Virus genome (UHGV): UHGV-0179428
Origin: a virus
Length of the DNA stretch: 64,000 nucleotides
Strand: one strand, 5' to 3'
Position numbers and translations under genes: made by a program. Positions 27,914-43,063 of this stretch are shown here, piece by piece (within the stretch, counting starts at the first letter, position 1; each line of letters starts with the position of its first letter). The notes under the pieces are model-generated. The model ran no database searches, had not been told where the DNA came from, and saw nothing but the letters and a program-made list of their open reading frames with translations.

Positions 27914-27917
27914 GGTG

Positions 27918-28376: not shown

Positions 28377-28880
28377 TCACTCCTTAGAAGACGATAGCGT
28401 CTTTATGATCTCCTGTCGAAAACTGTTCGCGTTTAAATTACCAACAGGTCTCGCCGAAGCCTCTTTACGTTGTTCTGGTGTTGAAGCCGGATTAACAGGA
28501 GTTTCTGGTTTTGCCGAGGACAGATCCTTCGTCGTACCGCTCGCTTTCGATGAATTAAACGTGCTTTCATATGGCGGTTTCTGGCCGAGGCAAACGAAGA
28601 GTCTGTCGTATAACTTCCCATTATCTTCTTTTAGTTTATCTCGATCTTGTTTCATCTCTTGGTAAGACTGCGACATATAAGTGTCATGAGACTGCACTGC
28701 AACGAGCGCGTGAAACTGTTGTACATAGGCGTAGGAGACGAAGCCAGAATACGACAACAAGATCGTGATGATTAAAGTCATTATCTTGCTTGCTCTTGAT
28801 ACGTTTTCTCCTTCTCCTGGTTTAAATGCTTCCATTAACATCTGAAGGAAGAACGGAAGCACTTTAAAAAATGAACCCAT
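28377..28880 (-). CDS. Membrane-anchored protein (N-terminal TM, predicted periplasmic domain), 167 aa
   Basis: Single TM IMTLIITILLSYSGFVSYAYV after a short cytoplasmic N-terminus; charged helical region then Ser/Thr/Pro-rich tail; stop/start abuts the secreted-protein gene. Confidence 0.5.
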   Translation of the reverse strand: MGSFFKVLPFFLQMLMEAFKPGEGENVSRASKIMTLIITILLSYSGFVSYAYVQQFHALVAVQSHDTYMSQSYQEMKQDRDKLKEDNGKLYDRLFVCLGQKPPYESTFNSSKASGTTKDLSSAKPETPVNPASTPEQRKEASARPVGNLNANSFRQEIIKTLSSSKE

Positions 28881-28905
28881 TGCTCACCTCGGAGTATTTT
28901 TAATT

Positions 28906-30279
28906 ATGTTAGACTTACAAGGTTTTATTCAGATACCGGCACTGTTTGACAATCAGGACGGCGTCACCGCTCCGGTGGGCGAGCTGTCGGATTTGACACT
29001 CTCGTACGCGAAGAGTAAACAGACGTTTACCAAAACCAATTTGCAAGTTCAATTGGTGACTTTTACGTCTAAACGAGAAAAACAGACGGTTGTTGTACCA
29101 GCCGAATTTTCTGATCATATTCTAACCGTTTCTCAATGGATATACCAGCAAGCCATCTTGGGGAATCTGAGAAATGACGAACTTGAATTCCAGCGCCTGT
29201 TACTAGGACAATTCCAATCAACCATTTCTGGCGTTCAGTCCGGTGCGATGATTCAGACGAACAGTAATTGGTTCCCACGCTGGGTGAGCTGGAAATATGA
29301 AGCAACAGCAGATCAAGTACAAGATGACACTGATGTAGATAATCAGATCATTGTTTGGTTCTCGGATGAAGACTTCGATCAAGATTACACAGGGTTCGAA
29401 ATCGAAGTACAGATGCCGATTTCACCAATCGACACATTTTTGTCGACCAAGTCAGTCGTTGAAAAGGCGATGGAAGGGTTTAACCTTACCGAACACCATA
29501 AGAAAATCAATGAGTTAATGGCAGGATTTCCTTACACCGCTATCCAAACCAACTACTATACTTGGCACGATCAAGAAAACTACGAGTCCACCCTAGTTGT
29601 CCCAATGTCGGTTATTATTTACGGCCGTGCGGGAAAAAACCCAACGAAAATAAAGCAAGCGTTGCGTGAACATATTCTCGCTAATTCTAGCTTTACTGTC
29701 CCCGTCGGGGTAAAGGTATTTCCTGAAATTTTCACTACCACGAAATTTACAATTGTTCCTGGATGGAAAATTCGTGGAATACCTAATGAGGAAGACGTAG
29801 CGGCGCTTTATTCCCCTATCCTTCCATATGATTTCTGGGTCAAAGCTATCAGTCGGTTTGGAGAATGGGCAGACCTGACGGTAGCAGAAAGAAATACTAA
29901 AACGATCAGTAAGCCTACGACAGATGTAACTGACTTACCAACCGTTTATAAATCGTTAAACTGTGTTGTAATCAGTGGGCCGGAAAACGATACGCGGAAA
30001 GCGACCTTACACGAAACTATCCCGGATTATGCGTTAATTGCGACGACTAATCCTGATATTGCGCGTATGTCGAAAACAACGACCGAATGGTTGGCGTTAT
30101 TCTTCCAGGCACTTATTGCTGCGGAAGAATACCACCCGTATCAAACCAGCTTAGACATTGTAAAACTGGTCGATGAGGCAGACCCTGATAACTATTTCTG
30201 GGTATTTGAGTACGATAATGTGGAATATCGAATCCTGTCTCGGAAAGCGAAATGGTACAGCGAGTTAGACGAGGAGTAA
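28906..30279 (+). CDS. Hypothetical protein (457 aa), possibly structural
   Basis: Rightward ORF. Confidence 0.55.
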   Translation: MLDLQGFIQIPALFDNQDGVTAPVGELSDLTLSYAKSKQTFTKTNLQVQLVTFTSKREKQTVVVPAEFSDHILTVSQWIYQQAILGNLRNDELEFQRLLLGQFQSTISGVQSGAMIQTNSNWFPRWVSWKYEATADQVQDDTDVDNQIIVWFSDEDFDQDYTGFEIEVQMPISPIDTFLSTKSVVEKAMEGFNLTEHHKKINELMAGFPYTAIQTNYYTWHDQENYESTLVVPMSVIIYGRAGKNPTKIKQALREHILANSSFTVPVGVKVFPEIFTTTKFTIVPGWKIRGIPNEEDVAALYSPILPYDFWVKAISRFGEWADLTVAERNTKTISKPTTDVTDLPTVYKSLNCVVISGPENDTRKATLHETIPDYALIATTNPDIARMSKTTTEWLALFFQALIAAEEYHPYQTSLDIVKLVDEADPDNYFWVFEYDNVEYRILSRKAKWYSELDEE

Positions 30280-30282
30280 TGA

Positions 30283-30906
30283 ATGGCTACGCGTTTACCA
30301 CTACAGGTACCAGTCAACACCACGGGTCTGTTTAAAGTAAAAACACCATTTACTTTAGCCGAGACAGTCATTTATACGGTAGAGGCATCGCGTACCTTCC
30401 CAGATTTAGTACGTCAGAATATCGACGTTTATAATTCGTATTACCAGCCAGCAGGGCTAGGGCGTGAAGAATATTTAGCAGATGCGAATGTTAGTGCGTC
30501 GATTTTGACATTTAAATCTCGTGATGGTCAAGTTGTATACATACCTGACACCTACCTGGAATCATACCCAGGTTTATCCGGGATCACGTATCAACGAAAT
30601 GTGTTAGTGGTAGATTTGGCACTAGTACCGGATTACGTGAAAGTGTCGTCTATAACAAAAGACGTTTCAGATATTCTCACGCATACTCTGGGGATTGAAC
30701 CGAAAGTTGAAATTACAACTCTCGAGTATGAGGGGAAGGTAACGGAGGAACAACACTTGCAGATGGAAGCGGCACGAAAAAATAAAATTCGTGAATCTAT
30801 TCCATTAGGTGAGAAAGTTGCTGCGTTGACAGAAGAAAACAAAAAATTAAAAGAGTTAAACAACCAGATGTTAGAGATTCTTAAAGCTAACGGGTTAGTT
30901 AACTAA
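30283..30906 (+). CDS. Hypothetical protein (207 aa) with C-terminal coiled-coil
   Basis: ORF with GGAG RBS; C-terminal EENKKLKELNNQMLEILKANG heptad-like segment. Confidence 0.55.
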   Translation: MATRLPLQVPVNTTGLFKVKTPFTLAETVIYTVEASRTFPDLVRQNIDVYNSYYQPAGLGREEYLADANVSASILTFKSRDGQVVYIPDTYLESYPGLSGITYQRNVLVVDLALVPDYVKVSSITKDVSDILTHTLGIEPKVEITTLEYEGKVTEEQHLQMEAARKNKIRESIPLGEKVAALTEENKKLKELNNQMLEILKANGLVN

Positions 30907-30950
30907 AAAAGATTACCCTACTCCCGAAGGAGTAGGGTAGCTTTTATTTT
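30904..30950. terminator. Bidirectional Rho-independent terminator (CCCTACTCC / GGAGTAGGG stem)
   Basis: A-run, 9-bp stem with CGAA loop, T-run; between convergent genes. Confidence 0.65.
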
Positions 30951-31497
30951 AAATGTCGACTTCTAGTTTACGGTAATCGATGACACCTTGAGCAATCATA
31001 GCAGCAACATCGTTCCAAGTACGAAAAATGAAGTAAACGGTATCCCCGTTTAAATAGATGTTGGATTCTTTATCCGGGAAATCATCTTCGCTAAGGTAAT
31101 AGTAGGGTCTGTCGAATGGGAAGTCACGTTCATCAGAGGAGCCAAGTACCGCATAACGATTGCCACAATCAAACAGAATCTTCCAACCAGACATTTCACT
31201 ATTAATGTCAATACGATCGGCGATTTCAACGGTAATAGGGGAATGATCAAGAAAACTGATCGTAATGTCTCCGTTATAACGTTTGAATCGCCAAATATCT
31301 GTAGGTACGATTTCAGACGCCGCTATAAGGGAATAAAGTTGTGTTGAGGTGATCTTTTTGTAAACGTTAGTTCCATCTCCAAAGTGGTTATATAAGAAAT
31401 TAGCCAGGAAATTTATATCCTTTAAACGTGAGCGGAAAACAGAACCACGGCGAATACCGTAAGCCAGATGAGTTAAATATTCAGACGATGGAAACAT
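30949..31497 (-). CDS. Hypothetical protein (182 aa), short paralog of 31560..32492
   Basis: Shares N-terminal (FPSE...RR...FL.N.F) and C-terminal (GDTVYFIFRTWNDV vs GGVVYFILSNWAHV) segments with the upstream gene. Confidence 0.5.
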   Translation of the reverse strand: MFPSSEYLTHLAYGIRRGSVFRSRLKDINFLANFLYNHFGDGTNVYKKITSTQLYSLIAASEIVPTDIWRFKRYNGDITISFLDHSPITVEIADRIDINSEMSGWKILFDCGNRYAVLGSSDERDFPFDRPYYYLSEDDFPDKESNIYLNGDTVYFIFRTWNDVAAMIAQGVIDYRKLEVDI

Positions 31498-31513
31498 TTT
31501 AATACTCCTAAGA

Positions 31514-31551
31514 TGGAAAAAAGAATTAACCCTACTCCCGGAGGAGTAGGG
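31514..31551 (-). terminator. Rho-independent terminator (CCCTACTCC / GGAGTAGGG stem) between paralogs
   Basis: Same stem sequence as the 30904..30950 and 11556..11594 terminators; T-run on the minus strand. Confidence 0.6.
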
Positions 31552-31559
31552 GACTTAAA

Positions 31560-32492
31560 TTATTTTTTGGTTTGGCCCAGCTTTTCAAGAACCAGTTCAC
31601 GAATGTACTTTTGAGTACGTTTCTTCGGTGGTAAAGCCATAAGGGTGTCAACGATTTCCTGGCCGCTGATAACCTTGCTGACGAGTTGTTGAACTTGGAA
31701 GAGTTCCGCTTCTTCGTCGCTAATTTCGCTAGATTGATCTTTCTGACACAATGCTTCTACCAGGTCAGCTACGGATATTTCATTTTCGTCACCAGGGAAA
31801 TCCAGGTTTAACGATTCGAAAACATCACGCTTAACGAGCACAGATTTCAGATCGTCGTAGTTTTCACAAACGGCGACTTCTGTGCCAGGTACTGTTTCTT
31901 CTTCGTCTTGAACTTTATTCTCAGCGGAGAAGTAACTTACTTTTGTTGCATGGAATGTTGCGTCAGCTTTTCTCAGGACGTGGCTCACATGCGCCCAGTT
32001 GCTCAGGATGAAGTAGACAACACCCCCATTTAATCCGATGTTACCCTGTCGAAGTTCGAGAGCAATTTCCAGGGGACGTGAAATCTCCCCCAAACCAAAG
32101 AAAGATTCGTCGTGCGCCGCAACAACTTCGTACTTATTCACGCCTTGTTCTACAACAACGAACCAGTTATCCGACACTGGATACGGATTGCGCATGAAAG
32201 AATGTTCGATCCCCACGCTTGGGTCAACAGTAACGGTTGTATGGCGCATTCCCATGGCGAAGTTGAACGTATCCCCATTTTGAACCGCAATTGCACAGTC
32301 AATCGGAAGAATATCGGTGGTTCGATCGATAGAGAAAATCGTTTCCTGCGTAATTGAAGACTGATTGCTGCCTAGGAAATGGTTACGCAGAAAAGCAGCG
32401 GTTGGACCTACGCTGGTTTGCAGCATATGGTAGCTATAACGACGACGTAGAGTGTTAGCCAGTTCGTAAATTACTTCAGATGGAAAAGTCAT
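31560..32492 (-). CDS. Hypothetical protein (310 aa), long paralog of 30949..31497
   Basis: ORF; paralogy as above; acidic C-terminal tail. Confidence 0.5.
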   Translation of the reverse strand: MTFPSEVIYELANTLRRRYSYHMLQTSVGPTAAFLRNHFLGSNQSSITQETIFSIDRTTDILPIDCAIAVQNGDTFNFAMGMRHTTVTVDPSVGIEHSFMRNPYPVSDNWFVVVEQGVNKYEVVAAHDESFFGLGEISRPLEIALELRQGNIGLNGGVVYFILSNWAHVSHVLRKADATFHATKVSYFSAENKVQDEEETVPGTEVAVCENYDDLKSVLVKRDVFESLNLDFPGDENEISVADLVEALCQKDQSSEISDEEAELFQVQQLVSKVISGQEIVDTLMALPPKKRTQKYIRELVLEKLGQTKK

Positions 32493-32545
32493 TTTAATAG
32501 TCCTCTTTTAGGTTTGTTCAAATCAACTAAGGGTTATGTAAAAAG

Positions 32546-33025
32546 TTAAAACAGTGGTAAGTTACGCCATTGACCTACCGAGTAAAAAGCTTTTGGATGT
32601 TTACGGATATACGCTTTCGCTTCTTCTGGCAACCAACGATTGCCTACCAGTTTTTGTTGCGCAACAATTACCGCCAACAGCAAATACGGGTTTTTCGCGC
32701 CGGGGAACTTTGCATTGGTTTCTAGCGCAATATCTAACATTGACGACCAGCCCAGTAATTTACGTTGCGCCGGTAAACGTTCTTCAATAAACATTAACCA
32801 GTCCATGATTTGTCTAGGTTTATACGGACACGTATAATTCGCCCAACTTACCATCCCGAACTTAATAGCCTTCGCAATAACCCATACAGGAACTGCCACG
32901 AAAAGACAGAAAATGGTCAACTGTGAGGCAGGTGCATCGATAAAAGTAACCGCTACAAGAACCATACACAGTTCAAGCACCACAAACCAAAAACGTGTTG
33001 GATAACGCCAAATGAATTTTATCAT
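32546..33025 (-). CDS. Membrane protein (two N-terminal TM helices), 159 aa
   Basis: Hydrophobic FWFVVLELCMVLVAVTFI and TIFCLFVAVPVWVIA segments followed by a soluble domain. Confidence 0.5.
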   Translation of the reverse strand: MIKFIWRYPTRFWFVVLELCMVLVAVTFIDAPASQLTIFCLFVAVPVWVIAKAIKFGMVSWANYTCPYKPRQIMDWLMFIEERLPAQRKLLGWSSMLDIALETNAKFPGAKNPYLLLAVIVAQQKLVGNRWLPEEAKAYIRKHPKAFYSVGQWRNLPLF

Positions 33026-33043
33026 ATCTCTGTTCCTTTAGGG

Positions 33044-33086
33044 AATGAAAATAAAAGTACCCCTTACTCCGTAAAGGGTAAGGGGT
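33044..33086 (-). terminator. Rho-independent terminator (CCCCTTAC / GTAAGGGG stem)
   Basis: 8-bp stem and T-rich run on the minus strand after 33092..33601. Confidence 0.5.
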
Positions 33087-33091
33087 AGAGG

Positions 33092-33601
33092 TTAGAAGAA
33101 CGGCTGATTTGGAATGACAGCGTACTCTAAAATGAACATGTGCTCTGGGGCGTCTTCTTTACGCCAGACTTTGTGTGTTATCACAAGTTTTTCCAGAATC
33201 GTTAGAAAACTACGCTGGCAGTATGTGTTTTCGCCAAGTAGCAGTTTCTGAAGTTCTACAGTAGCGTCCATATACGCCTGTTTAAAGACTAAGCTACGGT
33301 TATACTGTCCAGTAAAATTCCAAAGCAAGACTTTCCCTTCTTCGGTTTCTTTTACCGTTGGTCGTAAACCACAAATCCACAGCAAGGCAAGGTTGACGTT
33401 CCAGTCAAACTCTAAACCTTCTTCTTCGTCATCACCGAATGCTGTAGGTAAAGCATCGTAAAATTCGTGCTTCTCTGCGAACTCTTCATCCGATTTAATC
33501 TCGTCTTCGATGCTGCTTCGGACGATACCGTAAATGTCTTTCGCGGTTAGCTGTGCGGCCTTTGTAATGCCTTTATACCAATCGGTTACAACGATGCTCA
33601 A
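33092..33601 (-). CDS. Hypothetical protein (169 aa)
   Basis: ORF. Confidence 0.5.
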   Translation of the reverse strand: MSIVVTDWYKGITKAAQLTAKDIYGIVRSSIEDEIKSDEEFAEKHEFYDALPTAFGDDEEEGLEFDWNVNLALLWICGLRPTVKETEEGKVLLWNFTGQYNRSLVFKQAYMDATVELQKLLLGENTYCQRSFLTILEKLVITHKVWRKEDAPEHMFILEYAVIPNQPFF

Positions 33602-34323
33602 AGGGTAACTCCTCTATCGGTTGGAAAACTCATGTTTATTGTATCCCAAATTTTACTAACTTCCGCCAATTGAATCTGACGTGATGTTTTCTTCGCAAAC
33701 GCAAGCTGACGTGGGGCCGAGCCCACAACAACAGGCACATCGATTTTCGCGCTATAGAACGCGGCATCTTTCATAAAGCCTGCCATTTCTCGTTGTGCTG
33801 CTCGAGATTTGCTTTTGATTCGCGTGTGAGCGCCACTTTCACCCCAGTGGTAAGCTAACGCAACTTCAGCCATGGTGGGCTTGCGTTTGAGTCGTTTGGT
33901 TAACCCCTTCTCAAGATGTTTAACATACGCGGTAGCCAGCAAAACAGCGTTACGCGGATTATACAAATCGGTGTTCTGACTAAGACCTAATTCTTTTCCA
34001 TAAAGCTTTAGCAGATTGCGCTTGGTACTTGGAAGCATCTGTACCAGGCTGTGCGCTCGTGTGCTTTTGTTGTAAGCCTTGGGATCAAAACGTGATTCGC
34101 GATAAATCAGCGTAATCATCAGTTTAGGATCAACGCCTTGTTTTCGTGAGATTTCCACAATTAACGGACTGACTTTTTCGAACCGATGTTGGATTTGTGT
34201 AAACTCACGCTGATGCTTAGAATGTGGCGTTGACGTTGACGCCTGTGCGTTAAACGCGAAAAGTGTTACCAGTAAAAGAAAGAAGATACGAAACATTTTG
34301 TTTCTCCAGTTGGATTTATACAT
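33598..34323 (-). CDS. Secreted lytic transglycosylase (SLT domain) with signal peptide; candidate endolysin
   Basis: Signal-like MFRIFFLLLVTLFAFNAQA; SLT motifs YRESRFDPKAY...AHSLVQMLPST and YNPRNAVLLATAYVKHL. Confidence 0.6.
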   Translation of the reverse strand: MYKSNWRNKMFRIFFLLLVTLFAFNAQASTSTPHSKHQREFTQIQHRFEKVSPLIVEISRKQGVDPKLMITLIYRESRFDPKAYNKSTRAHSLVQMLPSTKRNLLKLYGKELGLSQNTDLYNPRNAVLLATAYVKHLEKGLTKRLKRKPTMAEVALAYHWGESGAHTRIKSKSRAAQREMAGFMKDAAFYSAKIDVPVVVGSAPRQLAFAKKTSRQIQLAEVSKIWDTINMSFPTDRGVTL

Positions 34324-34396
34324 TTCCGTATTCCGTAAGACGAAATGACGGCGCGGACAGCTAATACTCCTTTGTTGTGTGCCCTAATGATAATAT

Positions 34397-34957
34397 CTAT
34401 TTAAAAGAGTTTGGAATTAATGACTCTGCTTCTCGATACAACCTATCGGGTAAGTATAACGTGTAGTGTTGCCTCCTCGGTTCAAGTTTTTTGTAAAGCC
34501 ACAAGAAGATTTCTTGTCTTTCCCAGGAATCTAACCACCCATTTGCCATTCCCAGTGGAGGGATAGCAACGCTGGTATCCAGCTCCTCAACACAATCTGC
34601 TAATGCGGTAATGCCCGCAGTAACATAAGAAACCTGGGACTTTAAACGCCAATGTGTTTTCGTTGGGAGCAAGATGCACTTTTCATCAGGGTAAACGTAA
34701 ACGCTTCCAATCTTAATTTCGTCTTCACGACACCGCTTACGGTAATCTTGATATAGGTTGGGGTAGCGTTCACGGCACGCCAGCGCAATACCGCGGCCCA
34801 TTGCTCCTACACAGTTAATGGTAACGACTTTATAGTCTTCGGGCGCATTAAAAAGATCGCTACCAATTTCAGATTCTTTACGTACCGTTAACATAACGAA
34901 TCGGCCGCAGTTGATGTGTAGTATTAAAACGTGTACCGCCGATTGATAACTCGACAA
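34397..34957 (-). CDS. Macrodomain protein of the TARG1/DarG-like type (ADP-ribose glycohydrolase candidate)
   Basis: Motif GSDLFNAPEDYKVVTINCVGAMGRGIALACRERYP resembles the DLF...MG-x-GIA core of TARG1/DarG macrodomains. Real start probably the internal MLTVRKE. Confidence 0.45.
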   Translation of the reverse strand: MSSYQSAVHVLILHINCGRFVMLTVRKESEIGSDLFNAPEDYKVVTINCVGAMGRGIALACRERYPNLYQDYRKRCREDEIKIGSVYVYPDEKCILLPTKTHWRLKSQVSYVTAGITALADCVEELDTSVAIPPLGMANGWLDSWERQEIFLWLYKKLEPRRQHYTLYLPDRLYREAESLIPNSFK

Positions 34958-34981
34958 GTATAGCGATATACGTTTTACCCA

Positions 34982-35350
34982 TTAGCGATTTTTTGTAATC
35001 CATTGTTTGACCGCCGTTTCTAAACCTTCGTGTTGTAAGCCCAGGCGTTGCATAGCCAGTGCCAAGTTGAGCGTGTGTACAACCTGTTCACGGAACTGAT
35101 GATCGTTCATGCGGTCCCAGACCTTCTCTACCGAAATATTGTGTTTCCAGAGCAAATAAGCTTCGCGACACGATGCGCGACGAACCAAGCTGGGTTTAAC
35201 AAAAGGCAGCTCGATTTCAGGTAAGTAACCTAAAAGCTTAACTAGCTGTGTTACCTGTGTCTTACCAAAGTCGTCACACTGATAACAAATTTGTAGAATG
35301 TCAAATTCATTCAACGGTATGCCGTAAATTGATGGGTTCTCTGTGAACAT
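34982..35350 (-). CDS. Hypothetical protein (122 aa)
   Basis: ORF. Confidence 0.5.
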   Translation of the reverse strand: MFTENPSIYGIPLNEFDILQICYQCDDFGKTQVTQLVKLLGYLPEIELPFVKPSLVRRASCREAYLLWKHNISVEKVWDRMNDHQFREQVVHTLNLALAMQRLGLQHEGLETAVKQWITKNR

Positions 35351-35552
35351 TCATATTCTCCTCAGGCTCGAAATGTGTTTCGGGTGGCAACGTTCCTAAA
35401 GCCCCTTGGATACAAGCCGTCAGTGAAGGTTTGCCGAAACATACCTTACCTATTGTCCCCATATTGGGATGCTGTAAGAACGCTTTCGCACGTTCGTATT
35501 CTTTCCAACAAATACTCGTATCCAAACCACCCACTCCGTACGATTTTAACAT
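35307..35552 (-). CDS. Hypothetical protein (81 aa)
   Basis: ORF overlapping the downstream gene by 44 nt; fills the gap before the GNAT gene. Confidence 0.35.
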   Translation of the reverse strand: MLKSYGVGGLDTSICWKEYERAKAFLQHPNMGTIGKVCFGKPSLTACIQGALGTLPPETHFEPEENMNVHREPINLRHTVE

Positions 35553-35618
35553 AATTAGCTCTCCTGACGTAAATTTCTCACACTCATAGTGAAGTACGCC
35601 AAGAGAGCTTTATTGTTT

Positions 35619-36068
35619 TTAGAATGTTTTGCTAAAATCGACCCACTCACGATCGTGTGAGTAAACCGCCTGATAGCCGCGTCGGATGAAATACTCTTTT
35701 GCTTCTTTACATTTCGCATACATGCCAGTAACAATCTCGCCGAAAACTTCATCAGCTGCAATTGCTTTGAAAATCTCTTTCATTACACCCCGTTGACGAT
35801 AGTCTGGGAGCACGTATACCGAACGTATCTTAAGTGAACCGTTACGATTCCGATAACTACAGTATCCTACCGCGACATCATCCTGATACACCAGAACTAT
35901 GCAGTTACCTTCGATCAGCTGTCGCGCATTTAACTTCGGCACCGACGTTTTGATTTTCAGTAACGTGGCCTGGTGGTCTAAGTAACGGTAGTGTAGTTTG
36001 AGTAAATCGGCAGCTTGTCGCTCACCGACTTTAGAAGATGCGTTCAACAAATAAATTTCCATTTGCAA
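35619..36068 (-). CDS. GNAT-family N-acetyltransferase
   Basis: Motif A-like SVYVLPDYRQRGVMKEIFKAI (R/Q-x-x-G-x-G/A acetyl-CoA binding loop); 149 aa, typical GNAT size. Confidence 0.55.
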   Translation of the reverse strand: MQMEIYLLNASSKVGERQAADLLKLHYRYLDHQATLLKIKTSVPKLNARQLIEGNCIVLVYQDDVAVGYCSYRNRNGSLKIRSVYVLPDYRQRGVMKEIFKAIAADEVFGEIVTGMYAKCKEAKEYFIRRGYQAVYSHDREWVDFSKTF

Positions 36069-36093
36069 ACCTTAGAGACGCAAAAAAGTAAAA

Positions 36094-36222
36094 TTAAAAC
36101 CAACGCGCGATGACGAAAGCCGCAGCGGCTAATATGGCTGTGGTGATTATCAATCCACCCCATGAAAGTTCCGCGTCGTATAGTGCGGATATCGCTACAT
36201 TCGTAGCGTTTATCGTGGTCAT
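36094..36222 (-). CDS. Small hydrophobic peptide (42 aa), not in ORF track
   Basis: ATG ORF with AGGAG 5 nt upstream: MTTINATNVAISALYDAELSWGGLIITTAILAAAAFVIARWF. Confidence 0.35.
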   Translation of the reverse strand: MTTINATNVAISALYDAELSWGGLIITTAILAAAAFVIARWF

Positions 36223-36388
36223 TTTCTGCTCCTGTCAATACCCTCACACCGGAGGGTATCTTCTGGACTATTTGGGTGGTTAATCTTCGAATGCCCAACG
36301 GTGACGTTTAATCAGCCAGTTTAAACCTTTACCAATTAACCACAACGAGCCAAGTGTTAACAGAACCCCTACAACCATATCCCCTCTC

Positions 36389-36574
36389 CTAATTCCGCCA
36401 TTCGCATTCGCGTTGACGCCAAATTGAACCCCACGATAGTTTAATCAGATAAGATGAAACTACCCATAAAATCATCACCACACAAAACATGACATAAAGA
36501 ACCGCTAGAATGGACATGAAGCCAAACCCTGCCGCATCCACAATACGACGGAACCAATCAGTTTGCATAAACAA
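36389..36574 (-). CDS. Small membrane protein (61 aa)
   Basis: Hydrophobic FGFMSILAVLYVMFCVVMILWVV; start overlaps the stop of the upstream ATPase gene. Confidence 0.4.
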   Translation of the reverse strand: MFMQTDWFRRIVDAAGFGFMSILAVLYVMFCVVMILWVVSSYLIKLSWGSIWRQRECEWRN

Positions 36575-39062
36575 TTTTTACTCCTTCGTTATACACCGCA
36601 GGCAATGTCACCCCTTCCGGTTCGATGACACAGTACGATGCTTCATTAAGTTTAGAATGAACCTCGGCTTCGTGGGAGACTACCAACAGTTGAGAAAATT
36701 CTCCCGAGTTTGCTAACGTTTTAATAAAGCCGACCAGGTTGTTACGGTGCTCCTCATCCATACCTTCCGAAGGCTCATCCAAAAGCAATGGAAACTGATG
36801 CAACTTCAGCGCTTTGTACGCGGTCAGCCTGAACATCAGATTAAATATCGCACGCTGCGCCTTAGACCCTTTACGCACGTCAGGAACAGGCTCAGGATGC
36901 GTTTTTAGCTGGACAGGAAAAGTATAATCCAAATCACCGTCAGTGAGATCGCAAGGCATGACGCGCATGGGGTACGTCCAGACCTGTTCGATATAACGCG
37001 TCATTAACTCTGTGATTCTAACGATAGCGTTGTAAAAATACTTTCTAAGCACACCCTTTTCTGGCGAGAAGGCTTGAATCATCAGTTTGTTATTGAACTG
37101 CTGGGCTTGCAAGTCAGCAAGTTCGCGTTCCAAACTGTTGAGCTGATTCAATTCATTTTCCATCTGACGATAACGTTCGCGTGCGGTTGTAAAAGCATCC
37201 AGCTTCCCTTCTCGTGCACGTAAGAGTTCCTCGACGACTGTATTTGTCAACGTAACCTTAACATCACTCTCTAACCGTTCGAATAACGCACTGAAATCAT
37301 CTACAGCACGTTTAACATTCACCAGATAGGTAAGTGTCGTGTTAGCCAGTTCGTGCTCTCTACGACGCATTGAGAGCATCTCTGTGGCTTTACCTAATCG
37401 CGACTGTTGGAAAGCGATTTTCTGTTGTAAAGCACCATCGACGTTACCAACGGCCGCTACGGCATCCTGCCATTCTTTTTCCGCTTTCACTAACCGTTGT
37501 CGGGTTTCATGGTACTCAATAGCAGAGTACAACTCACTGTCAAACGCTGCGCATAGGCTCCCGAACTGCTCGCGTGATTCTGTGAAAACGTTACGTTCTT
37601 GCAAACGCTTAAAGAACATGCTCAATACCGGGTCCTTTGAATACGTCAGTACAATCTCACGAACCTGTCGCATATAAGTTACATCGGATTCTAACTCAAC
37701 ACGATCGCGTAATAGGGCCTCTAACTGCGTTTGTAGTTCCGTGCGCTGCTGTTGTTGTCCGCGAATCGAAGACTCAAGTTCAGGTAAAGAACGTGTAACA
37801 CCAGGCCGAAACTTAAACCGACACTGCGGACAATCCACTTCTGCTGTTTCTAAGTAGTGATTACGCTCATGATTTAAATTCTGTAAAACGTTCTCCACTC
37901 GCTGGAGTCTATCCCGCAACCCTGCGGTTTTTTGATCCATCACCAGAAGCCGTTCTTCCAAAACATTGAGTTTTTCGGTTGAATGAATTGCGTCCAGTGT
38001 TGTTCCTAACCGTTGCCCCCAGACACGCGCATCGGTAGCCGCACGAAGTTGGTCTAAATTGACGTTGTCGTTAAATAGACCCGGAAAGAGATGCTCGGTG
38101 TCCCATTTGGTAAGTAACTCACGTAAACGTGCCAGCGTATTCTTGAGACCTTCGTGATTCCGCATCAGGTAGTCTTGTCGTGTCGACTCATCCATTAATA
38201 ACGACAAGTCTTTATTCAACATCGATACCTCTGTTTCAGTAGAAACAACAGCTTCGCGGGCGGTCGCTTCGTTTTGTCGCGCGACCAGTATCTGTTCATC
38301 AGTAGGCAATCCACCACGATGTTGTAATATTGCGTCGATGGTTGGACCCAAGCTGTTTAATAACGCTTGGATTGTTTCGATGGTGACGGCACGATTTAAT
38401 CCTGGCAACTGTTCGATTTCTCGGTTCAGTTCACGTAAATCCGATTCCAAACCTTTTAATCTCGTCGCTAACTGCTGCCGTTCTTCCTCGTTCTCAATAA
38501 CGCGCGTCCGTAATTCGGCGATCTTACGGCTGGTGATTTCAATACCCCCATTTAAAGCAGTAAGGTTTTTACGCAAACGTTGATAAAACCCTAACGCGTA
38601 AGTGAGGTCAGAGGTACTTAAACGGTAAAACCACTTGCGGCGTAGTTCGGTTCCCGCGTCAGTTAACAACACCTCACCATTTAATAGTTCTTTAATCTCT
38701 TTCGTAATACCCGTGATTTCTTCAACACGGGAGTTGTAGACTTTCGCATTACCTTGCTCGACGATCTTTGTCCCCGTGGTCAAGTTCTCAATATCACAAA
38801 CCAGTGAGTTGCCTTTACGGGCAACTTTGAATCGATAGCGTTGATCGCCAACTAAACAGTAGTTTGTGTAAGAACCTCCGTCCCTGAATTCGGTTTTAGC
38901 CGGTGCTAAGGGTAAGAACACAGACAGTAGACTGGTTTTCCCGCAGCCGTTCCCACCCAGGATAATTGTTGTCGGTGACTGGATAGTGAAATCGAAGGTT
39001 TCAATTTCATGTAACCCCATCCCCGTAAAACCTTTGAGTATAATGCGTTCAACTTTTAGCAT
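36558..39062 (-). CDS. Rad50/SbcC-like coiled-coil ABC ATPase with zinc-hook CxxC
   Basis: Start moved to the ATG at 39062 (GGAGGTGGGT upstream). Walker A GGNGCGKTSLL, long helical middle with CPQC, Walker B/D-loop LLLDEPSEGMDEE, H-loop VVSHE. Confidence 0.65.
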   Translation of the reverse strand: MLKVERIILKGFTGMGLHEIETFDFTIQSPTTIILGGNGCGKTSLLSVFLPLAPAKTEFRDGGSYTNYCLVGDQRYRFKVARKGNSLVCDIENLTTGTKIVEQGNAKVYNSRVEEITGITKEIKELLNGEVLLTDAGTELRRKWFYRLSTSDLTYALGFYQRLRKNLTALNGGIEITSRKIAELRTRVIENEEERQQLATRLKGLESDLRELNREIEQLPGLNRAVTIETIQALLNSLGPTIDAILQHRGGLPTDEQILVARQNEATAREAVVSTETEVSMLNKDLSLLMDESTRQDYLMRNHEGLKNTLARLRELLTKWDTEHLFPGLFNDNVNLDQLRAATDARVWGQRLGTTLDAIHSTEKLNVLEERLLVMDQKTAGLRDRLQRVENVLQNLNHERNHYLETAEVDCPQCRFKFRPGVTRSLPELESSIRGQQQQRTELQTQLEALLRDRVELESDVTYMRQVREIVLTYSKDPVLSMFFKRLQERNVFTESREQFGSLCAAFDSELYSAIEYHETRQRLVKAEKEWQDAVAAVGNVDGALQQKIAFQQSRLGKATEMLSMRRREHELANTTLTYLVNVKRAVDDFSALFERLESDVKVTLTNTVVEELLRAREGKLDAFTTARERYRQMENELNQLNSLERELADLQAQQFNNKLMIQAFSPEKGVLRKYFYNAIVRITELMTRYIEQVWTYPMRVMPCDLTDGDLDYTFPVQLKTHPEPVPDVRKGSKAQRAIFNLMFRLTAYKALKLHQFPLLLDEPSEGMDEEHRNNLVGFIKTLANSGEFSQLLVVSHEAEVHSKLNEASYCVIEPEGVTLPAVYNEGVKIVYAN

Positions 39063-39091
39063 ACCCACCTCCATAAAGACGGAGTGTGGTG

Positions 39092-39137
39092 TAAAAAGAA
39101 AAAAAAATAAAGAAAGGGAGAACCCGAAGGTTCTCCC
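39092..39137 (-). terminator. Rho-independent terminator (GGGAGAACC / GGTTCTCCC stem)
   Basis: 9-bp stem with CGAA loop and long T-run on the minus strand after 39143..39751. Confidence 0.6.
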
Positions 39138-39142
39138 AAACG

Positions 39143-39751
39143 TTATTTGGTGTAGAGGTGATAACCCATTGAAGTCCAATAATCGACGTTCTTCGTGTTT
39201 TCTACCCAAACCTGTCCCGCCTTTGTGGCTAAGACTTCCATTGTCAATGTACAGATCAGATTTGTTACCGGGATACAATTTCCAGGTGTAACATCATCCA
39301 GATAAACCGGGTATAAAAACGGCGATTTAATGGATTGGTACGGGTAAGAATAGTGGCTACCGACCTTCCACCCTTCTTCTACAGGACAGAGATTAAAAGT
39401 GCGTGTTTCAGGAACTGCGTTTTCAGAGATCCAGTTAACAACATCGGCTTTAATTCGATCGTGGTCGATATAGTAGAACACAACACGTTGTGGGATACTT
39501 GTGGTACCAGCCGGGTCTAAAGCCTCCAACGCCTTAAAAGGCGACGTTAACAATGTTGTACTGTTCTCAAGCGCGTAAACCAACTTTTCGTAAGCAGTCG
39601 GTGTTTTACGTTTAAAATATTCCCGTAAGCGAGGGTATGCCAGGAATCCCTCTACTTCTTCTTCCATTAAGTCAATGAATAAAGGCGTATGCGAAAAACG
39701 CTCTGCATTTTGCATCGCTTCAAGAAAACGAACTAATGTAATTTCGTTCAT
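39143..39751 (-). CDS. Hypothetical protein (202 aa)
   Basis: ORF. Confidence 0.5.
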   Translation of the reverse strand: MNEITLVRFLEAMQNAERFSHTPLFIDLMEEEVEGFLAYPRLREYFKRKTPTAYEKLVYALENSTTLLTSPFKALEALDPAGTTSIPQRVVFYYIDHDRIKADVVNWISENAVPETRTFNLCPVEEGWKVGSHYSYPYQSIKSPFLYPVYLDDVTPGNCIPVTNLICTLTMEVLATKAGQVWVENTKNVDYWTSMGYHLYTK

Positions 39752-39807
39752 CTGGTCTTTCCTTTTAGATCAAAAAAAGAAGCCCCGAGTAAACGGGGCC
39801 GGGCTAA

Positions 39808-40284
39808 TTACAGCCCTAAGTGCGTGAGTGATAAAATAGGTTGTGTTTCACCTTTAATCGTCGCGAAGGAACGATACATTTCTGCGTTACTTGAAAAAAC
39901 TTCGTTAGCAACGATACATTCACCCGTCTCTAAAGAAAGGAGATAAATGTAGTCGCTCCATACGCTTTGTACCAACACCCACTCAAGTGCGGTATCATTT
40001 TCGCGTGTTGTTCGCAGGTGGTGAAAGTAAGGACGGATTGCATCAACTGCCGCATTAAAACGACGGTGATAAATTCGGGTTAAATCAAAGGTCCAGATTG
40101 TTTCCAGGTCGACTGGATGTAGTGTGCGCACCGTTTCGATAATCGTCGACTGATCGTTAAGGCGCGAGGCTTCGGCGATACGTAGCAGTTTCCAGGCCAC
40201 CGTTAAGTTGTGGCGAATTTGTTCAGGTTTAGCCGACAGGTCATGATGAAATTGCGCAGCTTGGTAAACGTTAGATAATTGCAT
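39808..40284 (-). CDS. Hypothetical protein (158 aa)
   Basis: ORF. Confidence 0.5.
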   Translation of the reverse strand: MQLSNVYQAAQFHHDLSAKPEQIRHNLTVAWKLLRIAEASRLNDQSTIIETVRTLHPVDLETIWTFDLTRIYHRRFNAAVDAIRPYFHHLRTTRENDTALEWVLVQSVWSDYIYLLSLETGECIVANEVFSSNAEMYRSFATIKGETQPILSLTHLGL

Positions 40285-40310
40285 TTTAATACTCCTTTAG
40301 GTAAACATGT

Positions 40311-40340
40311 CGTAAAAAGGACCCCGGACGTACCGGGGTC
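40311..40340 (-). terminator. Candidate terminator hairpin (GACCCCGG / CCGGGGTC)
   Basis: 8-bp GC stem with short T-run on the minus strand after 40351..40740. Confidence 0.4.
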
Positions 40341-40350
40341 AAGACTACAC

Positions 40351-40740
40351 TCAATGATCTAATTCAATAGCACCAGCCATCTTGCCCCGTTCTTCGATAA
40401 CGATCAGATAACGGTCGCGAGATTTGCTTTTAGCGAGAGTTAAGACAACGGTAGGGTCGCACGTTTTCGTGGTGATAGGAAGAACCTCTCTTGCGACGGA
40501 ATCGAGCAGAAAGTAATAACCTGCGGGACACATTGTGCCACCGTCAGCTTTTACCAGAATATAGCGCCCGTCTGCGCCGACTTCTTGGCAGATTGTTTCA
40601 CCGACTTCGCAAACTTCAAACCCCGGAGGATTGTACTGATAATCGGTATTGTTGTTTGGGGTTAGCAGTAAATCGTTAACTTGGGTAGATGCTGCTACAC
40701 TCAGGGAGAAGAAGAATGCTAAAACGCAGACGAGACGCAT
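40351..40740 (-). CDS. Secreted small protein with signal peptide, Cys-containing (129 aa)
   Basis: MRLVCVLAFFFSLSVAAST signal-like N-terminus; four Cys in the mature part. Confidence 0.5.
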   Translation of the reverse strand: MRLVCVLAFFFSLSVAASTQVNDLLLTPNNNTDYQYNPPGFEVCEVGETICQEVGADGRYILVKADGGTMCPAGYYFLLDSVAREVLPITTKTCDPTVVLTLAKSKSRDRYLIVIEERGKMAGAIELDH

Positions 40741-40750
40741 GAGTTACTCC

Positions 40751-41161
40751 TTAAATTTTAAGTTTATCCATAGCTACAACGATAGGTTTTTCCGAAGTGT
40801 CTAATATCCCTACCATTGGCACACCATCTACGACTTCGAAGAATGGTTTGTTATTACCAGAGCACAGACGTTTGTCGTTGTATTCGAGACGCTGGGCCTT
40901 CCACGTTTCGAGGTTGAGTACGGACATTGGGCTGTCGTAGCACCAGGCACCACCCTGCTCAACGATGAATACGTATCTGCTACCTTTGTATTTAAACAGA
41001 CTCTTTGCCTGACAGTACAAGCCGTCGATTTCCGTACAATAGAAATCATCGGTGCTATTGACGTACTTAATATTGTCTGGCAACTGTATTGTTTTTGCTG
41101 TAGTGTTGACAGAGAATAGAACAGCCATTGCAATGAGGAGAGTATTAATGATAGTTTTCAT
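40751..41161 (-). CDS. Secreted small protein with signal peptide, Cys-containing (136 aa)
   Basis: MKTIINTLLIAMAVLFSVNTTA signal-like N-terminus; several Cys. Confidence 0.5.
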   Translation of the reverse strand: MKTIINTLLIAMAVLFSVNTTAKTIQLPDNIKYVNSTDDFYCTEIDGLYCQAKSLFKYKGSRYVFIVEQGGAWCYDSPMSVLNLETWKAQRLEYNDKRLCSGNNKPFFEVVDGVPMVGILDTSEKPIVVAMDKLKI

Positions 41162-41172
41162 GATAAAAGTCC

Positions 41173-41658
41173 TTAGTATTTAGATTGTTCTACGTACTTC
41201 TTAACCAGGTAAGCGAATTCGGCAACACCGATATCACCGAACCAAATCAGATAACCGGGGTCGATGTTGTAGTAATAGCCGACGAGTTTCTTGGTGTGTG
41301 GGTTGTATAGCGTTACGATGTATTCCCAACCACAAGCGTTAGCTTTACAACCGCCACTTTCAATCCAGATTTTGTTGTTGATGTTTACCGGATACATGTT
41401 ACCGCCAGGGCCATCCATGTAACCTTTAGAGCCGAACATACCATCCAGCCCCACAGGGTCTAATGTTTTATCAACAACGGCTTTAAACGACTTATCGGTA
41501 TCGTACAAGTCGTTGATGTTTGGGCACGCATTTGGCTGACCTTCCCAAGCGTTTCCATCACAGGTAAGCAGTTCGTCTACGGAGGCCGCATCTACACTTG
41601 GTGTGGCACCGATAAACAAGAAAACCAGAAAGAACATCAGTGTGTGTAAACGTTTCAT
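41173..41658 (-). CDS. Secreted small protein with signal peptide (161 aa)
   Basis: MKRLHTLMFFLVFLFIGATPSVDAA signal-like N-terminus; Cys pairs. Confidence 0.5.
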   Translation of the reverse strand: MKRLHTLMFFLVFLFIGATPSVDAASVDELLTCDGNAWEGQPNACPNINDLYDTDKSFKAVVDKTLDPVGLDGMFGSKGYMDGPGGNMYPVNINNKIWIESGGCKANACGWEYIVTLYNPHTKKLVGYYYNIDPGYLIWFGDIGVAEFAYLVKKYVEQSKY

Positions 41659-41676
41659 TGTAACTACTCCTTTAGA

Positions 41677-42069: not shown

Positions 42070-42091
42070 GCACTCTAAAAAAGATTAATAG

Positions 42092-42553: not shown

Positions 42554-42599
42554 TGAAATGCTCCTTCGGGTTATGGGGAAATTCCCACAAATTATGAAA

Positions 42600-43045: not shown

Positions 43046-43063
43046 TATTTTTAATATTAACGA

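What the first reader, a model, noticed from the sequence alone, without database searches (positions are those of the whole stretch)
34397..36068. TARG1/DarG-like macrodomain next to a GNAT acetyltransferase: candidate anti-defence module
The 34397..34957 product carries DLF...INCVGAMGRGIALA, which resembles the core of TARG1/DarG-type macrodomains. DarG macrodomains remove ADP-ribose that DarT toxins place on ssDNA thymidines, so a phage copy could reverse ADP-ribosylation-based host defences or hydrolyse ADP-ribose-derived signals. Two small unknown genes and a GNAT acetyltransferase follow in the same operon, making a possible small-molecule or protein-modification module.
Basis: partly seen in the sequence, partly recalled or inferred. 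Interest (0 to 1): 0.7.

Follow-up and report, generated by a model that had tools for sequence, protein, structure and literature searches.

The report
Jumbo-phage AdfM: orphan DarG-type macrodomain

Summary
Window 34397..34894 (minus strand, 165 aa from the conserved ATG) encodes a macrodomain. Its best matches by sequence and by predicted structure are the macrodomains of bacterial DarG antitoxins. The DarG active-site residues are kept: Asn27, Thr78-Lys79 and His81-Trp82. The protein lacks DarG's C-terminal DarT-binding half, and I found no darT gene near it.

The window is a SPN3US/Asesino-like jumbo phage. The protein is 61.6% identical to Asesino gp217 and syntenic with it, and 37% identical to PhiKZ gp104. 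Morgan et al. (Cell Rep 2026) named both AdfM. For PhiKZ gp104 they showed removal of DarT2-placed ADP-ribose from DNA and protection against DarTG2. PhiKZ, PhiPA3 and Asesino AdfM all localise to the phage nucleus. This is therefore a new member of a known family.

The proposed macro–GNAT module is not supported. The GNAT travels with the macro gene only within this phage clade, and only 1 of 24 other stand-alone macro lineages has a GNAT nearby.

The GNAT's constant partner is instead the 81-aa gene directly downstream. That gene is a mimic of residues about 4-38 of elongation factor Tu. Its function is unknown, and it is the most interesting leftover from this work.

The parts
34397..34894 (-). 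AdfM-like orphan DarG2-type macrodomain CDS (165 aa). Asn27 is codon 34816..34814 and catalytic Lys79 is codon 34660..34658. The G30-x-M-G-x-G35 and P112-P-L-G-M-A-N-G119 ADP-ribose loops are present.
   Evidence: It is 61.6% identical to Asesino gp217 and 37% identical to PhiKZ gp104, E 1e-29.
34895..34957 (-). In-frame 21-codon extension up to a TTG, which the mechanical ORF list included. It is probably untranslated leader and not part of the gene.
   Evidence: Homologues are 161-166 aa and their alignments start at the ATG. The sequence was read.
34982..35350 (-). Conserved 122-aa protein of unknown function (phrog_11720). It is the orthologue of SPN3US gp072 and Asesino gp214.
   Evidence: No Pfam, NCBIfam or PADLOC match.
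35307..35552 (-). 81-aa protein whose residues about 17-54 mimic EF-Tu residues about 4-38 (beta1, P-loop, start of helix A; the P-loop is degenerate, GKVCFGKP). It is always the gene directly downstream of the GNAT.
35619..36062 (-). GNAT-family N-acetyltransferase (147 aa from the ATG; the mechanical ORF starts at TTG 36068). Substrate unknown.
   Evidence: Pfam PF00583, PF13508 and PF13673 above cutoff; phrog_3810. NCBIfam gives only weak ArsN2 and RimI similarity. Clade-restricted distribution.
33598..34323 (-). Downstream synteny anchor, not part of the module: an SLT lytic transglycosylase with an N-terminal signal-like segment.
   Evidence: It occupies the same position in SPN3US (gp068) and Asesino (gp218).
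36558..39278 (-). Upstream synteny anchor, not part of the module: an SMC/SbcC-like ATPase. Its true start is probably an internal ATG.
   Evidence: It occupies the same position in SPN3US (gp080) and Asesino (gp207).

Best explanation
The 165-aa protein is an orthologue of AdfM (anti-DarT factor macro), an orphan antitoxin domain carried by nucleus-forming jumbo phages. Host DarT2 toxins attach ADP-ribose to thymidines in single-stranded DNA at TNTC-type motifs. In PhiKZ this reduces phage DNA replication about 4-fold and, more importantly, blocks genome packaging. The phage macrodomain binds the ADP-ribosyl-thymidine and cleaves the ribose-base bond, using the DarG-type Lys (Lys79 here) with Asn27 positioning the substrate, and so restores unmodified DNA. 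It has no DarT-binding domain, so it acts only by erasing the mark and not by sequestering the toxin. By analogy with the Asesino, PhiKZ and PhiPA3 proteins, it is probably imported into the phage nucleus, where the DNA is. What is shown here: the fold, family membership, conserved active-site residues, absence of the C-terminal domain and of a nearby darT gene, and orthology and synteny with Asesino gp217. What is inferred by homology: the enzymatic activity, the DarTG2 target and the nuclear localisation. The upstream GNAT and the two small genes are most likely independent accessory genes in the same variable region between the SMC-like and SLT genes.
For: The closest solved sequences are the DarG macrodomains 5M3I (E 3e-26) and 5M31 (E 5e-21). 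The AlphaFold model has pLDDT 93.9. Its top Foldseek PDB hits are 5M3E, 5M3I and 5M31 (E about 1e-12, TM 0.78/0.85, rmsd about 2 Å), ahead of DarTG 7OMU and TARG1 4J5Q. PADLOC DarG gives E 5e-37 and NCBIfam antitoxin_DarG gives E 4e-36, both over the N-terminal half of the model only. T. aquaticus DarG residues N22, T79-K80 and H82-W83 correspond to N27, T78-K79 and H81-W82 here. N27 and K79 are invariant in 21 homologues, and Jankevicius 2016 (PMC5179494) gives the functional meaning of these residues. The loop reads G-M-A-N-G here, and the experimentally active PhiKZ AdfM has the same A-N-G. BLASTP against PhiKZ gp104 gives 37% identity and E 1e-29 (the gp104 sequence was verified). tblastn gives 61.6% identity to Asesino gp217, which Morgan et al. 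list as AdfM and show in the phage nucleus. The order SMC ... GNAT ... macro, SLT is shared with SPN3US and Asesino. The AdfM biochemistry and genetics are in PMC13309987. No ART or DarT Pfam family was found among the other 61 window ORFs or the neighbours. TNTC motifs are abundant and not depleted: 1138 and 1136 observed on the two strands against 1115 and 1040 expected.
Against: Nothing was tested biochemically for this protein. Identity to the only enzymatically characterised AdfM (PhiKZ gp104) is 37%. Some residues that hydrogen-bond ADP-ribose in T. aquaticus DarG differ here (Q34 to Ala39, N8 to Asp13, G119 to Ala117). I found no shared neighbourhood with the PhiKZ-type AdfM locus, so common descent with gp104 rests on sequence alone. 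The window does not contain the nuclear-shell or import genes, so the nucleus-forming lifestyle is inferred from relatives. In Agricanvirus phages the homologous macro gene lies next to a gene with a weak, sub-threshold match to the SLOG-type YAcAr family (22.1 bits against a cutoff of 28.2). If that match is real, some family members could also act on small ADP-ribose derivatives.
Confidence: 0.8

Rival explanations
1. The protein is a general ADP-ribose-processing macrodomain, as older annotations imply (Appr-1''-p phosphatase, O-acetyl-ADP-ribose deacetylase, TARG1-like protein de-ADP-ribosylase, or a hydrolase of ADP-ribose-derived immune signals). On this view it clears protein or small-molecule ADP-ribose conjugates rather than DNA adducts.
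For: GenBank relatives are labelled 'Appr-1-p processing protein' or 'phosphatase', and phrog_335 is labelled 'phosphatase'. TARG1 and viral macrodomains are also significant structural matches. A Poa1p-like chain appears weakly in the PDB sequence search (6LFT, E 0.02). In Erwinia phage Desertfox the homologue sits next to a gene with a weak, sub-threshold SLOG-type YAcAr match.
Against: DarG macrodomains are much the best match by sequence and structure: E 1e-26 against 0.02 for the Poa1p-type, and Foldseek E 1e-12 against 2e-7 for TARG1. TARG1's Asp125 is not conserved. The DarG-specific Trp, proposed to stack on the thymine, is conserved. Homologues were shown to act on T-ADPr DNA and to determine the DarTG2 phenotype.
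Confidence: 0.08
2. This is the first reader's module idea: the GNAT, the two small proteins and the macrodomain act together as one small-molecule or protein-modification pathway, for example acetylation coupled to ADP-ribose processing.
For: All four genes are on the same strand with short gaps. The GNAT lies 0.7-2.3 kb upstream of the macro gene in every SPN3US/Erwinia-clade genome examined. In the distant Serratia phage Totoro, an unrelated GNAT overlaps the start of the macro gene.
Against: The macro gene occurs in 281 phage records and this GNAT family in only 50. The number and identity of the intervening genes vary: two here, four in SPN3US and Asesino. Of 76 neighbour ORFs within 1.5 kb in 24 other stand-alone macro lineages, only one is a GNAT. 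PhiKZ AdfM works alone in vitro and in E. coli. The GNAT's strict partner is the EF-Tu-like gene, not the macro gene.
Confidence: 0.07
3. The macrodomain reverses ADP-ribosylation carried out by a phage-encoded transferase, or RNA ADP-ribosylation. That would make it a self-regulation or RNA-repair enzyme rather than a counter to host DarT2.
For: ARTs are common in jumbo phages: more than 40% according to PMC9503650. Some actinophage homologues of the macro region lie within genes annotated as ADP-ribosyltransferase (rows H142 and H163).
Against: No ART or DarT family was detected among the ORFs scanned in this 64-kb window. Only about a quarter of the genome was visible, so this is weak evidence. 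The AdfM deletion phenotype in PhiKZ and PhiPA3 appears only on DarTG2 hosts.
Confidence: 0.04

Closest known systems
AdfM (anti-DarT factor macro): PhiKZ gp104, PhiPA3 gp108, Goslar gp83, Asesino gp217 (Morgan et al., Cell Rep 2026, PMC13309987)
   Same: It is a stand-alone DarG2-like macrodomain of about 160 aa in a jumbo phage of the chimallivirus group. It has the same active-site Asn and Lys and the same A-N-G loop variant. It is 61.6% identical to and syntenic with Asesino gp217, and 37% identical to PhiKZ gp104.
   Different: It comes from a different phage: the closest record in the phage collection is only 66% identical at protein level, and there is no near-identical DNA. Its genomic neighbourhood differs from the PhiKZ/201phi2-1 locus. 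Its activity, target and localisation are untested.
DarG2 antitoxin of the DarTG2 toxin-antitoxin system (T. aquaticus, M. tuberculosis; PDB 5M3E, 5M3I)
   Same: It has the same macrodomain subfamily and the same catalytic residues. It is 40-43% identical over the macrodomain, and the predicted structure superposes at about 2 Å.
   Different: It lacks the DarT-binding C-terminal half of about 170-190 aa. It scores 124.9 bits against the NCBIfam equivalog cutoff of 250. There is no adjacent darT gene, and it is encoded by a lytic phage rather than a toxin-antitoxin operon.
TARG1/OARD1 (human terminal ADP-ribose glycohydrolase; PDB 4J5Q/4J5S)
   Same: It belongs to the same macrodomain class, and the catalytic Lys (TARG1 K84) aligns with Lys79.
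   Different: Identity is only 19%. TARG1's Asp125 aligns with Gly119. TARG1 acts on protein Glu/Asp-ADP-ribose.
AdfN (orphan NADAR antitoxin-like enzymes of T-even phages against DarTG1), and AdfA/AdfB (small DarT inhibitors)
   Same: The strategy is the same: a phage carries a counter to DarT, and for AdfN it is an orphan copy of the antitoxin's eraser domain.
   Different: AdfN has a different fold (NADAR) and acts on guanosine-ADPr. AdfA and AdfB are non-enzymatic binders.
AcrVA5 (a GNAT acetyltransferase anti-CRISPR) and RimI (acetylates the S18 and EF-Tu N-termini), as comparators for the neighbouring GNAT
   Same: The neighbouring protein has the GNAT fold and sits in a phage accessory region. 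There is a weak RimI-model match (17.4 bits), and it lies next to an EF-Tu N-terminus-like gene.
   Different: No family-level membership was found: the RimI cutoff is 86.4 bits and the ArsN2 cutoff is 125 bits. The substrate is unknown. The AcrVA5 comparison rests on my own knowledge and was not tested here.

Membership tests
AdfM (chimallivirus anti-DarT factor macro) | Significant homology to named AdfM proteins (PhiKZ gp104, Asesino gp217) | tested here: met
   BLASTP against gp104 gives 37% identity over 127 aa, E 1e-29. tblastn gives 61.6% identity over 96% of the length to Asesino gp217.
AdfM (chimallivirus anti-DarT factor macro) | Stand-alone macrodomain with the active-site Asn (PhiKZ N23) and Lys (PhiKZ K78) | tested here: met
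   N27 and K79 align with these residues and are invariant in 21 homologues. The protein is 165 aa, and the confident model (pLDDT 93.9) aligns to the roughly 152-residue DarG macrodomain over 157 columns, so there is no extra domain.
AdfM (chimallivirus anti-DarT factor macro) | Encoded by a nucleus-forming (chimallivirus) jumbo phage | tested here: inconclusive
   The window is syntenic with SPN3US and Asesino, and Asesino is a published nucleus-forming phage (reference cited). The shell and import genes themselves were not identified in the window.
AdfM (chimallivirus anti-DarT factor macro) | Removes DarT2-placed ADP-ribose from thymidine in ssDNA and protects against DarTG2 | not testable with these tools
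   This needs an in vitro gel-shift assay and plaque assays. It has been shown for PhiKZ gp104 (and, for protection, PhiPA3) only.
AdfM (chimallivirus anti-DarT factor macro) | PicA-dependent import into the phage nucleus | not testable with these tools
   No import signal is defined at sequence level. Nuclear localisation was shown for the Asesino, PhiKZ and PhiPA3 proteins.
DarG2 antitoxin (type II TA, NCBIfam NF048014) | DarG-type macrodomain with catalytic Lys80 and Asn22 | tested here: met
DarG2 antitoxin (type II TA, NCBIfam NF048014) | C-terminal DarT-binding domain (full length about 330-360 aa) | tested here: not met
   The match covers model positions 7-154 of 338. The score is 124.9 bits against the equivalog cutoff of 250. 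The PADLOC match covers 7-151 of 329. The protein ends at residue 165.
DarG2 antitoxin (type II TA, NCBIfam NF048014) | Adjacent darT toxin gene | tested here: not met
   The neighbours are a 122-aa unknown protein and an SLT. No DarT or ART Pfam family was found in the neighbours or in 61 other window ORFs.
TARG1/OARD1 | Catalytic dyad Lys84 plus Asp125 | tested here: not met
   The Lys is conserved (K79), but Asp125 aligns with Gly119, as it does with a Gly in DarG (the TARG1 sequence was verified).
GNAT acetyltransferase superfamily (neighbouring gene 35619..36062) | Pfam GNAT domain above the gathering threshold | tested here: met
   PF00583 scores 33.0 bits (cutoff 20.7), PF13508 scores 32.9 (cutoff 27) and PF13673 scores 27.0 (cutoff 23.6).
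RimI (S18/EF-Tu N-alpha-acetyltransferase) | Equivalog-level match to TIGR01575 | tested here: not met
   The score is 17.4 bits against a cutoff of 86.4. The AlphaFold model was too poor (pLDDT 54.8) for a fold comparison.

The most novel reading that the evidence does not exclude
The novel element may not be the macrodomain but the conserved two-gene pair just upstream: a GNAT acetyltransferase plus an 81-110-aa protein derived from the 5' end of the host tuf gene, which mimics EF-Tu residues about 4-38. The pair could target or imitate the N-terminal region of EF-Tu. For example, the fragment could be a decoy or pseudo-substrate for a host enzyme or defence that reads the EF-Tu N-terminus. 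Alternatively, it could act as a regulator or adaptor for a phage acetyltransferase that acts on EF-Tu. Either way, the region between the SMC-like and SLT genes would be a small counter-defence or host-takeover islet that also holds AdfM.
Probability: 0.2. Interest if true: 0.6.

Novelty: new member of a known kind. Interest (0 to 1): 0.3.

Why it matters
The result confirms that orphan DarG-type macrodomains extend into a further Salmonella/Enterobacteriaceae-associated jumbo-phage lineage. Phages like this would be expected to resist DarTG2-carrying hosts, which is relevant to choosing therapeutic jumbo phages and predicting host range. It does not open a new question, because the mechanism, localisation and phenotype were published for AdfM in 2026. 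The leftover worth pursuing is the strictly co-inherited pair of a GNAT and an EF-Tu N-terminus mimic. Some GenBank records label the small gene 'putative elongation factor Tu', but I found no study of it.

Tried and rejected
1. A near-identical DNA search of 33000-38000 against the phage collection found nothing.

2. I tested the GNAT as a general partner of phage DarG-like macrodomains and rejected the idea. The GNAT family is limited to the SPN3US/Erwinia clade. A Pfam scan of 76 neighbour ORFs in 24 other lineages found one GNAT, in Serratia phage Totoro.

3. I asked whether the Totoro GNAT is homologous to the window GNAT. No relationship beyond the fold was detectable: BLASTP found nothing, and the family HMM gave E > 10.

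4. I tested for shared synteny with the PhiKZ/201phi2-1 AdfM locus through gp100/gp101-like genes of matching length. BLASTP found no similarity, so this was rejected.

5. I looked for a phage-borne DarT or other ART in the window and found none among the ORFs scanned with Pfam.

6. I tested for depletion of the DarT2 target motif TNTC and found none. A simulation-based version of this test timed out.

7. The AlphaFold model of the GNAT, built from a shallow alignment of close homologues, gave pLDDT 54.8. That is too poor for a fold search, so none was run.

8. The sigma-70 promoter scan found no more sites than shuffled sequence. The terminator scan found 8 sites against 3.9 ± 2.1 expected, but none marks an obvious operon boundary within the four genes. 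These phages also use their own RNA polymerases, so the scans say little.

9. I looked for Rosetta-stone fusions of the EF-Tu-like protein to a GNAT. All 21 family members are stand-alone proteins of 66-112 aa.

10. No tRNA genes were found in the window.
Full report
**1. What is in the sequence**

All genes between about 31.5 and 47 kb of the window run on the minus strand. The flagged ORF, 34397..34957, is 186 aa from a TTG. Every homologue is 161-166 aa and aligns from the internal Met (MLT...), so the CDS is 34397..34894, 165 aa. In transcription order the region reads as follows:

| Order | Coordinates (minus strand) | Product |
|---|---|---|
| 1 | 39278..36558 | SMC/SbcC-like ATPase |
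| 2 | 36574..36094 | Three tiny predicted membrane ORFs |
| 3 | 36062..35619 | GNAT acetyltransferase, 147 aa |
| 4 | 35552..35307 | 81-aa protein |
| 5 | 35350..34982 | 122-aa protein, overlapping the previous gene by 44 nt |
| 6 | 34894..34397 | Macrodomain protein |
| 7 | 34323..33598 | SLT lytic transglycosylase |

In transcription the GNAT and the small genes precede the macro gene rather than follow it.

**2. Is it a macrodomain, and of which kind?**

Several independent searches agree:

- Pfam Macro is above threshold, at 26.8 bits against a cutoff of 22.
- The PADLOC DarG model gives E 5e-37. NCBIfam antitoxin_DarG gives E 4e-36. Both cover only the N-terminal half of the model (positions 7-151 of 329 and 7-154 of 338). 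The NCBIfam score of 124.9 bits is below the equivalog cutoff of 250.
- phmmer against all PDB sequences puts the DarG macrodomains first: 5M3I, M. tuberculosis, E 3e-26, and 5M31/5M3E, T. aquaticus, E 5e-21. The DarTG fusion 7OMU follows, and Poa1p-type phosphatases appear only at E about 0.02.
- An AlphaFold model built from 21 homologues is confident, with pLDDT 93.9 and pTM 0.90.
- Foldseek against the PDB again ranks 5M3E, 5M3I and 5M31 first (E about 1e-12, TM 0.78/0.85, rmsd about 2 Å over 157 columns). 7OMU follows at 3e-9 and TARG1 4J5Q at 2e-7.

**3. Active site**

Jankevicius et al. 2016 (PMC5179494) show that K80A inactivates T. aquaticus DarG. N22A is the next most damaging mutation, and W83 is proposed to stack on the modified thymine. 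Alignment A2 and the 21-sequence family alignment give these correspondences:

| T. aquaticus DarG | This protein | Note |
|---|---|---|
| N22 | N27 | Invariant in 21 homologues |
| T79-K80 | T78-K79 | Invariant in 21 homologues |
| H82-W83 | H81-W82 | Conserved |
| G25-x-M-G-x-G30 | G30-x-M-G-x-G35 | ADP-ribose loop |
| P-P-L-G117-A-G-N-G121 | P-P-L-G115-M-A-N-G119 | The active PhiKZ AdfM also has A-N-G |

TARG1's K84 aligns with K79. Its D125 aligns with a Gly here and in DarG. I verified my remembered TARG1 sequence against PDB 2LGR. The protein is therefore DarG-type, not TARG1-type.

**4. What the window is**

The 1440-aa ORF and the local gene order match Salmonella phage SPN3US and its relatives at about 52-54% protein identity. 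No near-identical DNA exists in the phage collection. Two IMG/VR contigs of 221-225 kb encode a macro protein 97-98% identical to the window's, with the same local gene order. Homologues at 90% identity sit on contigs of about 226 kb in Salmonella enterica assemblies. The window is therefore an undescribed SPN3US/Asesino-like jumbo phage, probably of Salmonella or a related host.

**5. It belongs to a family that is already characterised**

A literature search found Morgan et al., Cell Rep 2026 (PMC13309987). They report the following:

- About half of chimalliviruses encode a DarG2-like macrodomain, which they name AdfM.
- PhiKZ gp104 removes DarT2-placed ADP-ribose from a TNTC oligonucleotide, and the N23A mutant is impaired.
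- PhiKZ gp104 rescues DarT2 toxicity in E. coli.
- AdfM deletion costs PhiKZ and PhiPA3 three to six logs of titre on DarTG2 hosts.
- The unprotected DNA becomes ADP-ribosylated and fails to be packaged.
- AdfM from PhiKZ, PhiPA3 and Erwinia phage Asesino localises to the phage nucleus.

Their figure legend names Asesino gp217 (YP_009290835.1) as AdfM. The window protein is 61.6% identical to that gene over 96% of its length. It lies in the same SMC ... GNAT ... macro, SLT arrangement. It is 37% identical (E 1e-29) to PhiKZ gp104 (my translation of the paper's construct was checked). It is thus a new member of AdfM.

**6. Supporting checks**

- No DarT or other ART family was detected among the neighbours or the other 61 window ORFs. 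This is not a phage-borne DarTG system.
- TNTC motifs are not depleted: 1138 and 1136 observed on the two strands against 1115 and 1040 expected. The genome therefore offers abundant DarT2 targets, which fits reliance on an eraser enzyme.
- Many of the IMG/VR relatives retrieved are ORFs of about 320-360 aa, the length of full-length DarG. Their C-terminal halves and neighbours were not examined. The short orphan form seen here is a distinct architecture.

**7. The GNAT and the module idea**

The GNAT is real (Pfam; phrog_3810). NCBIfam offers only weak ArsN2 and RimI similarity, far below the cutoffs.

Its family occurs in 50 phage records, against 281 for the macro gene. In 49 of those 50, all jumbo phages of the SPN3US/Erwinia clade, it lies 0.7-2.3 kb upstream of the macro gene. 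The intervening genes vary: two here, four in SPN3US and Asesino. Some genomes have a tandem GNAT duplicate.

Outside that clade, PhiKZ-like phages, 201phi2-1, Goslar and Desertfox have no GNAT beside the macro gene. A Pfam scan of 76 neighbour ORFs within 1.5 kb, covering 24 other stand-alone macro lineages, found a single GNAT. That one is in Serratia phage Totoro. It overlaps the macro gene's start but shows no detectable relationship to the window GNAT.

PhiKZ AdfM also works alone in vitro and in E. coli. I conclude that the GNAT is a syntenic neighbour in a variable accessory region and not a required partner. I keep about 7% for a functional link, because of the independent Totoro adjacency.

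**8. What the GNAT really travels with**

The 81-aa gene directly downstream (35552..35307) gave weak NCBIfam hits to EF-Tu (E 6e-4, residues 17-54 against EF-Tu 4-38). Its orthologues make the resemblance plain. The Asesino, ChrisDB and Huxley versions contain [12 protein letters not shown] (preceded by P-K in the latter two), followed by a SACISGALGTLP-like segment. EF-Tu has [28 protein letters not shown]. The evidence for this likeness is as follows:

- BLASTP of Asesino gp213 against E. coli EF-Tu gives 19 of 37 identities, pairwise E 2e-8.
- A profile of eight family members searched against the PDB gave EF-Tu chains for 59 of the 60 listed hits; the sixtieth was the related GTPase eIF2 gamma at E 0.004. 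The best E-value is 9e-8, and profile positions 32-61 align with EF-Tu residues 8-37.
- Seven of eight members hit NCBIfam EF-Tu models individually.
- At DNA level, 32 of 36 nt of Asesino gp213 match tuf in all 5,426 E. coli genomes.

The P-loop Lys/Thr is degenerate in these proteins (GKVCFGKP in the window). The proteins are only 66-112 aa and always stand alone. They are therefore fragments that mimic EF-Tu, not GTPases.

The gene is present in 48 of the 49 jumbo-phage records that carry the GNAT, and in every case examined it is the next gene downstream. Several GenBank records already call it 'putative elongation factor Tu', but I found no paper that discusses it. RimI, a GNAT, acetylates the EF-Tu N-terminus (PMC9079301). 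This makes a GNAT and EF-Tu-mimic pairing suggestive, but the function is unknown and I tested nothing further.

**9. Verdict**

It is not correct about the module. In novelty terms this is a new member of a known kind (AdfM), so interest is modest. The most novel reading not excluded concerns the GNAT and EF-Tu-mimic pair, not the macrodomain.

Noticed in passing
window 35307..35552 (-), with the GNAT at 35619..36062 (-): The 81-aa gene directly downstream of the GNAT mimics EF-Tu residues about 4-38 (beta1, degenerate P-loop, start of helix A). Orthologues in Erwinia phages contain an exact [12 protein letters not shown] and match tuf even at DNA level. The gene co-occurs with the GNAT in 48 of 49 jumbo-phage records and is the adjacent downstream gene in every case examined. 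No study of it was found.
   Followed up: partly
L002 (Serratia phage Totoro ON287372.1) 2090-3432: In this distant jumbo phage the order is a 143-aa protein with an N-terminal Walker-A segment (LLGRVGSGKTS), then an unrelated GNAT, then the DarG-like macro gene with overlapping ends. This loosely parallels the P-loop-fragment, GNAT and macro arrangement in the window.
   Followed up: partly
L026, L030, L035, L047, L062, L064 and others (IMG/VR viral contigs), match at about 4001-5060: Many viral-contig relatives are ORFs of about 320-360 aa, the length of full-length DarG (macro plus C-terminal domain). This suggests complete DarG, and possibly DarTG, systems carried on phage or prophage contigs. 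The neighbouring genes were not examined.
   Followed up: no
L007 (Erwinia phage Desertfox NC_042098.1) 3468-4349: The gene downstream of the Agricanvirus macro homologue has a weak match to the SLOG-type YAcAr family (E 1e-4, 22.1 bits, below the gathering score of 28.2). If real, this would hint at an NAD/ADP-ribose context different from that of the window.
   Followed up: no
window 36094..36574 (-): Three tiny ORFs (61, 32 and 42 aa) with hydrophobic, membrane-like sequences lie between the SMC-like gene and the GNAT. SPN3US and Asesino have similar tiny genes there. An 8-bp hairpin (ATACCCTC-CGGTGT-GAGGGTAT) sits at about 36263..36242.
   Followed up: no
window 36558..39278 (-): The SMC/SbcC-like ATPase (phrog_77) also matches PADLOC LmuB models (E 2e-18). 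It is conserved at this position in SPN3US (gp080) and Asesino (gp207). The mechanical TTG start is probably too far upstream.
   Followed up: no
window 34982..35350 (-) and 35307..35552 (-): The 122-aa gene overlaps the 81-aa gene by 44 nt in a different frame. Close relatives (L010/L011) show a shorter overlap of about 23 nt. The 122-aa protein (phrog_11720) has a conserved C-terminal ...HEGLE..W..RN(R/K) segment and no known family.
   Followed up: no
window 26..2713 (+) and 33598..34323 (-): The window holds two SLT lytic-transglycosylase domains: one inside an 895-aa protein and one in a 241-aa protein with a signal-like N-terminus next to the macro gene. Elsewhere the window encodes thymidylate synthase, RNase H and an Rv2179c-like exoribonuclease.
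   Followed up: no
window 1..64000, both strands: The DarT2 target motif TNTC is not depleted: 1138 and 1136 sites against 1115 and 1040 expected from a first-order Markov model.
   Followed up: yes
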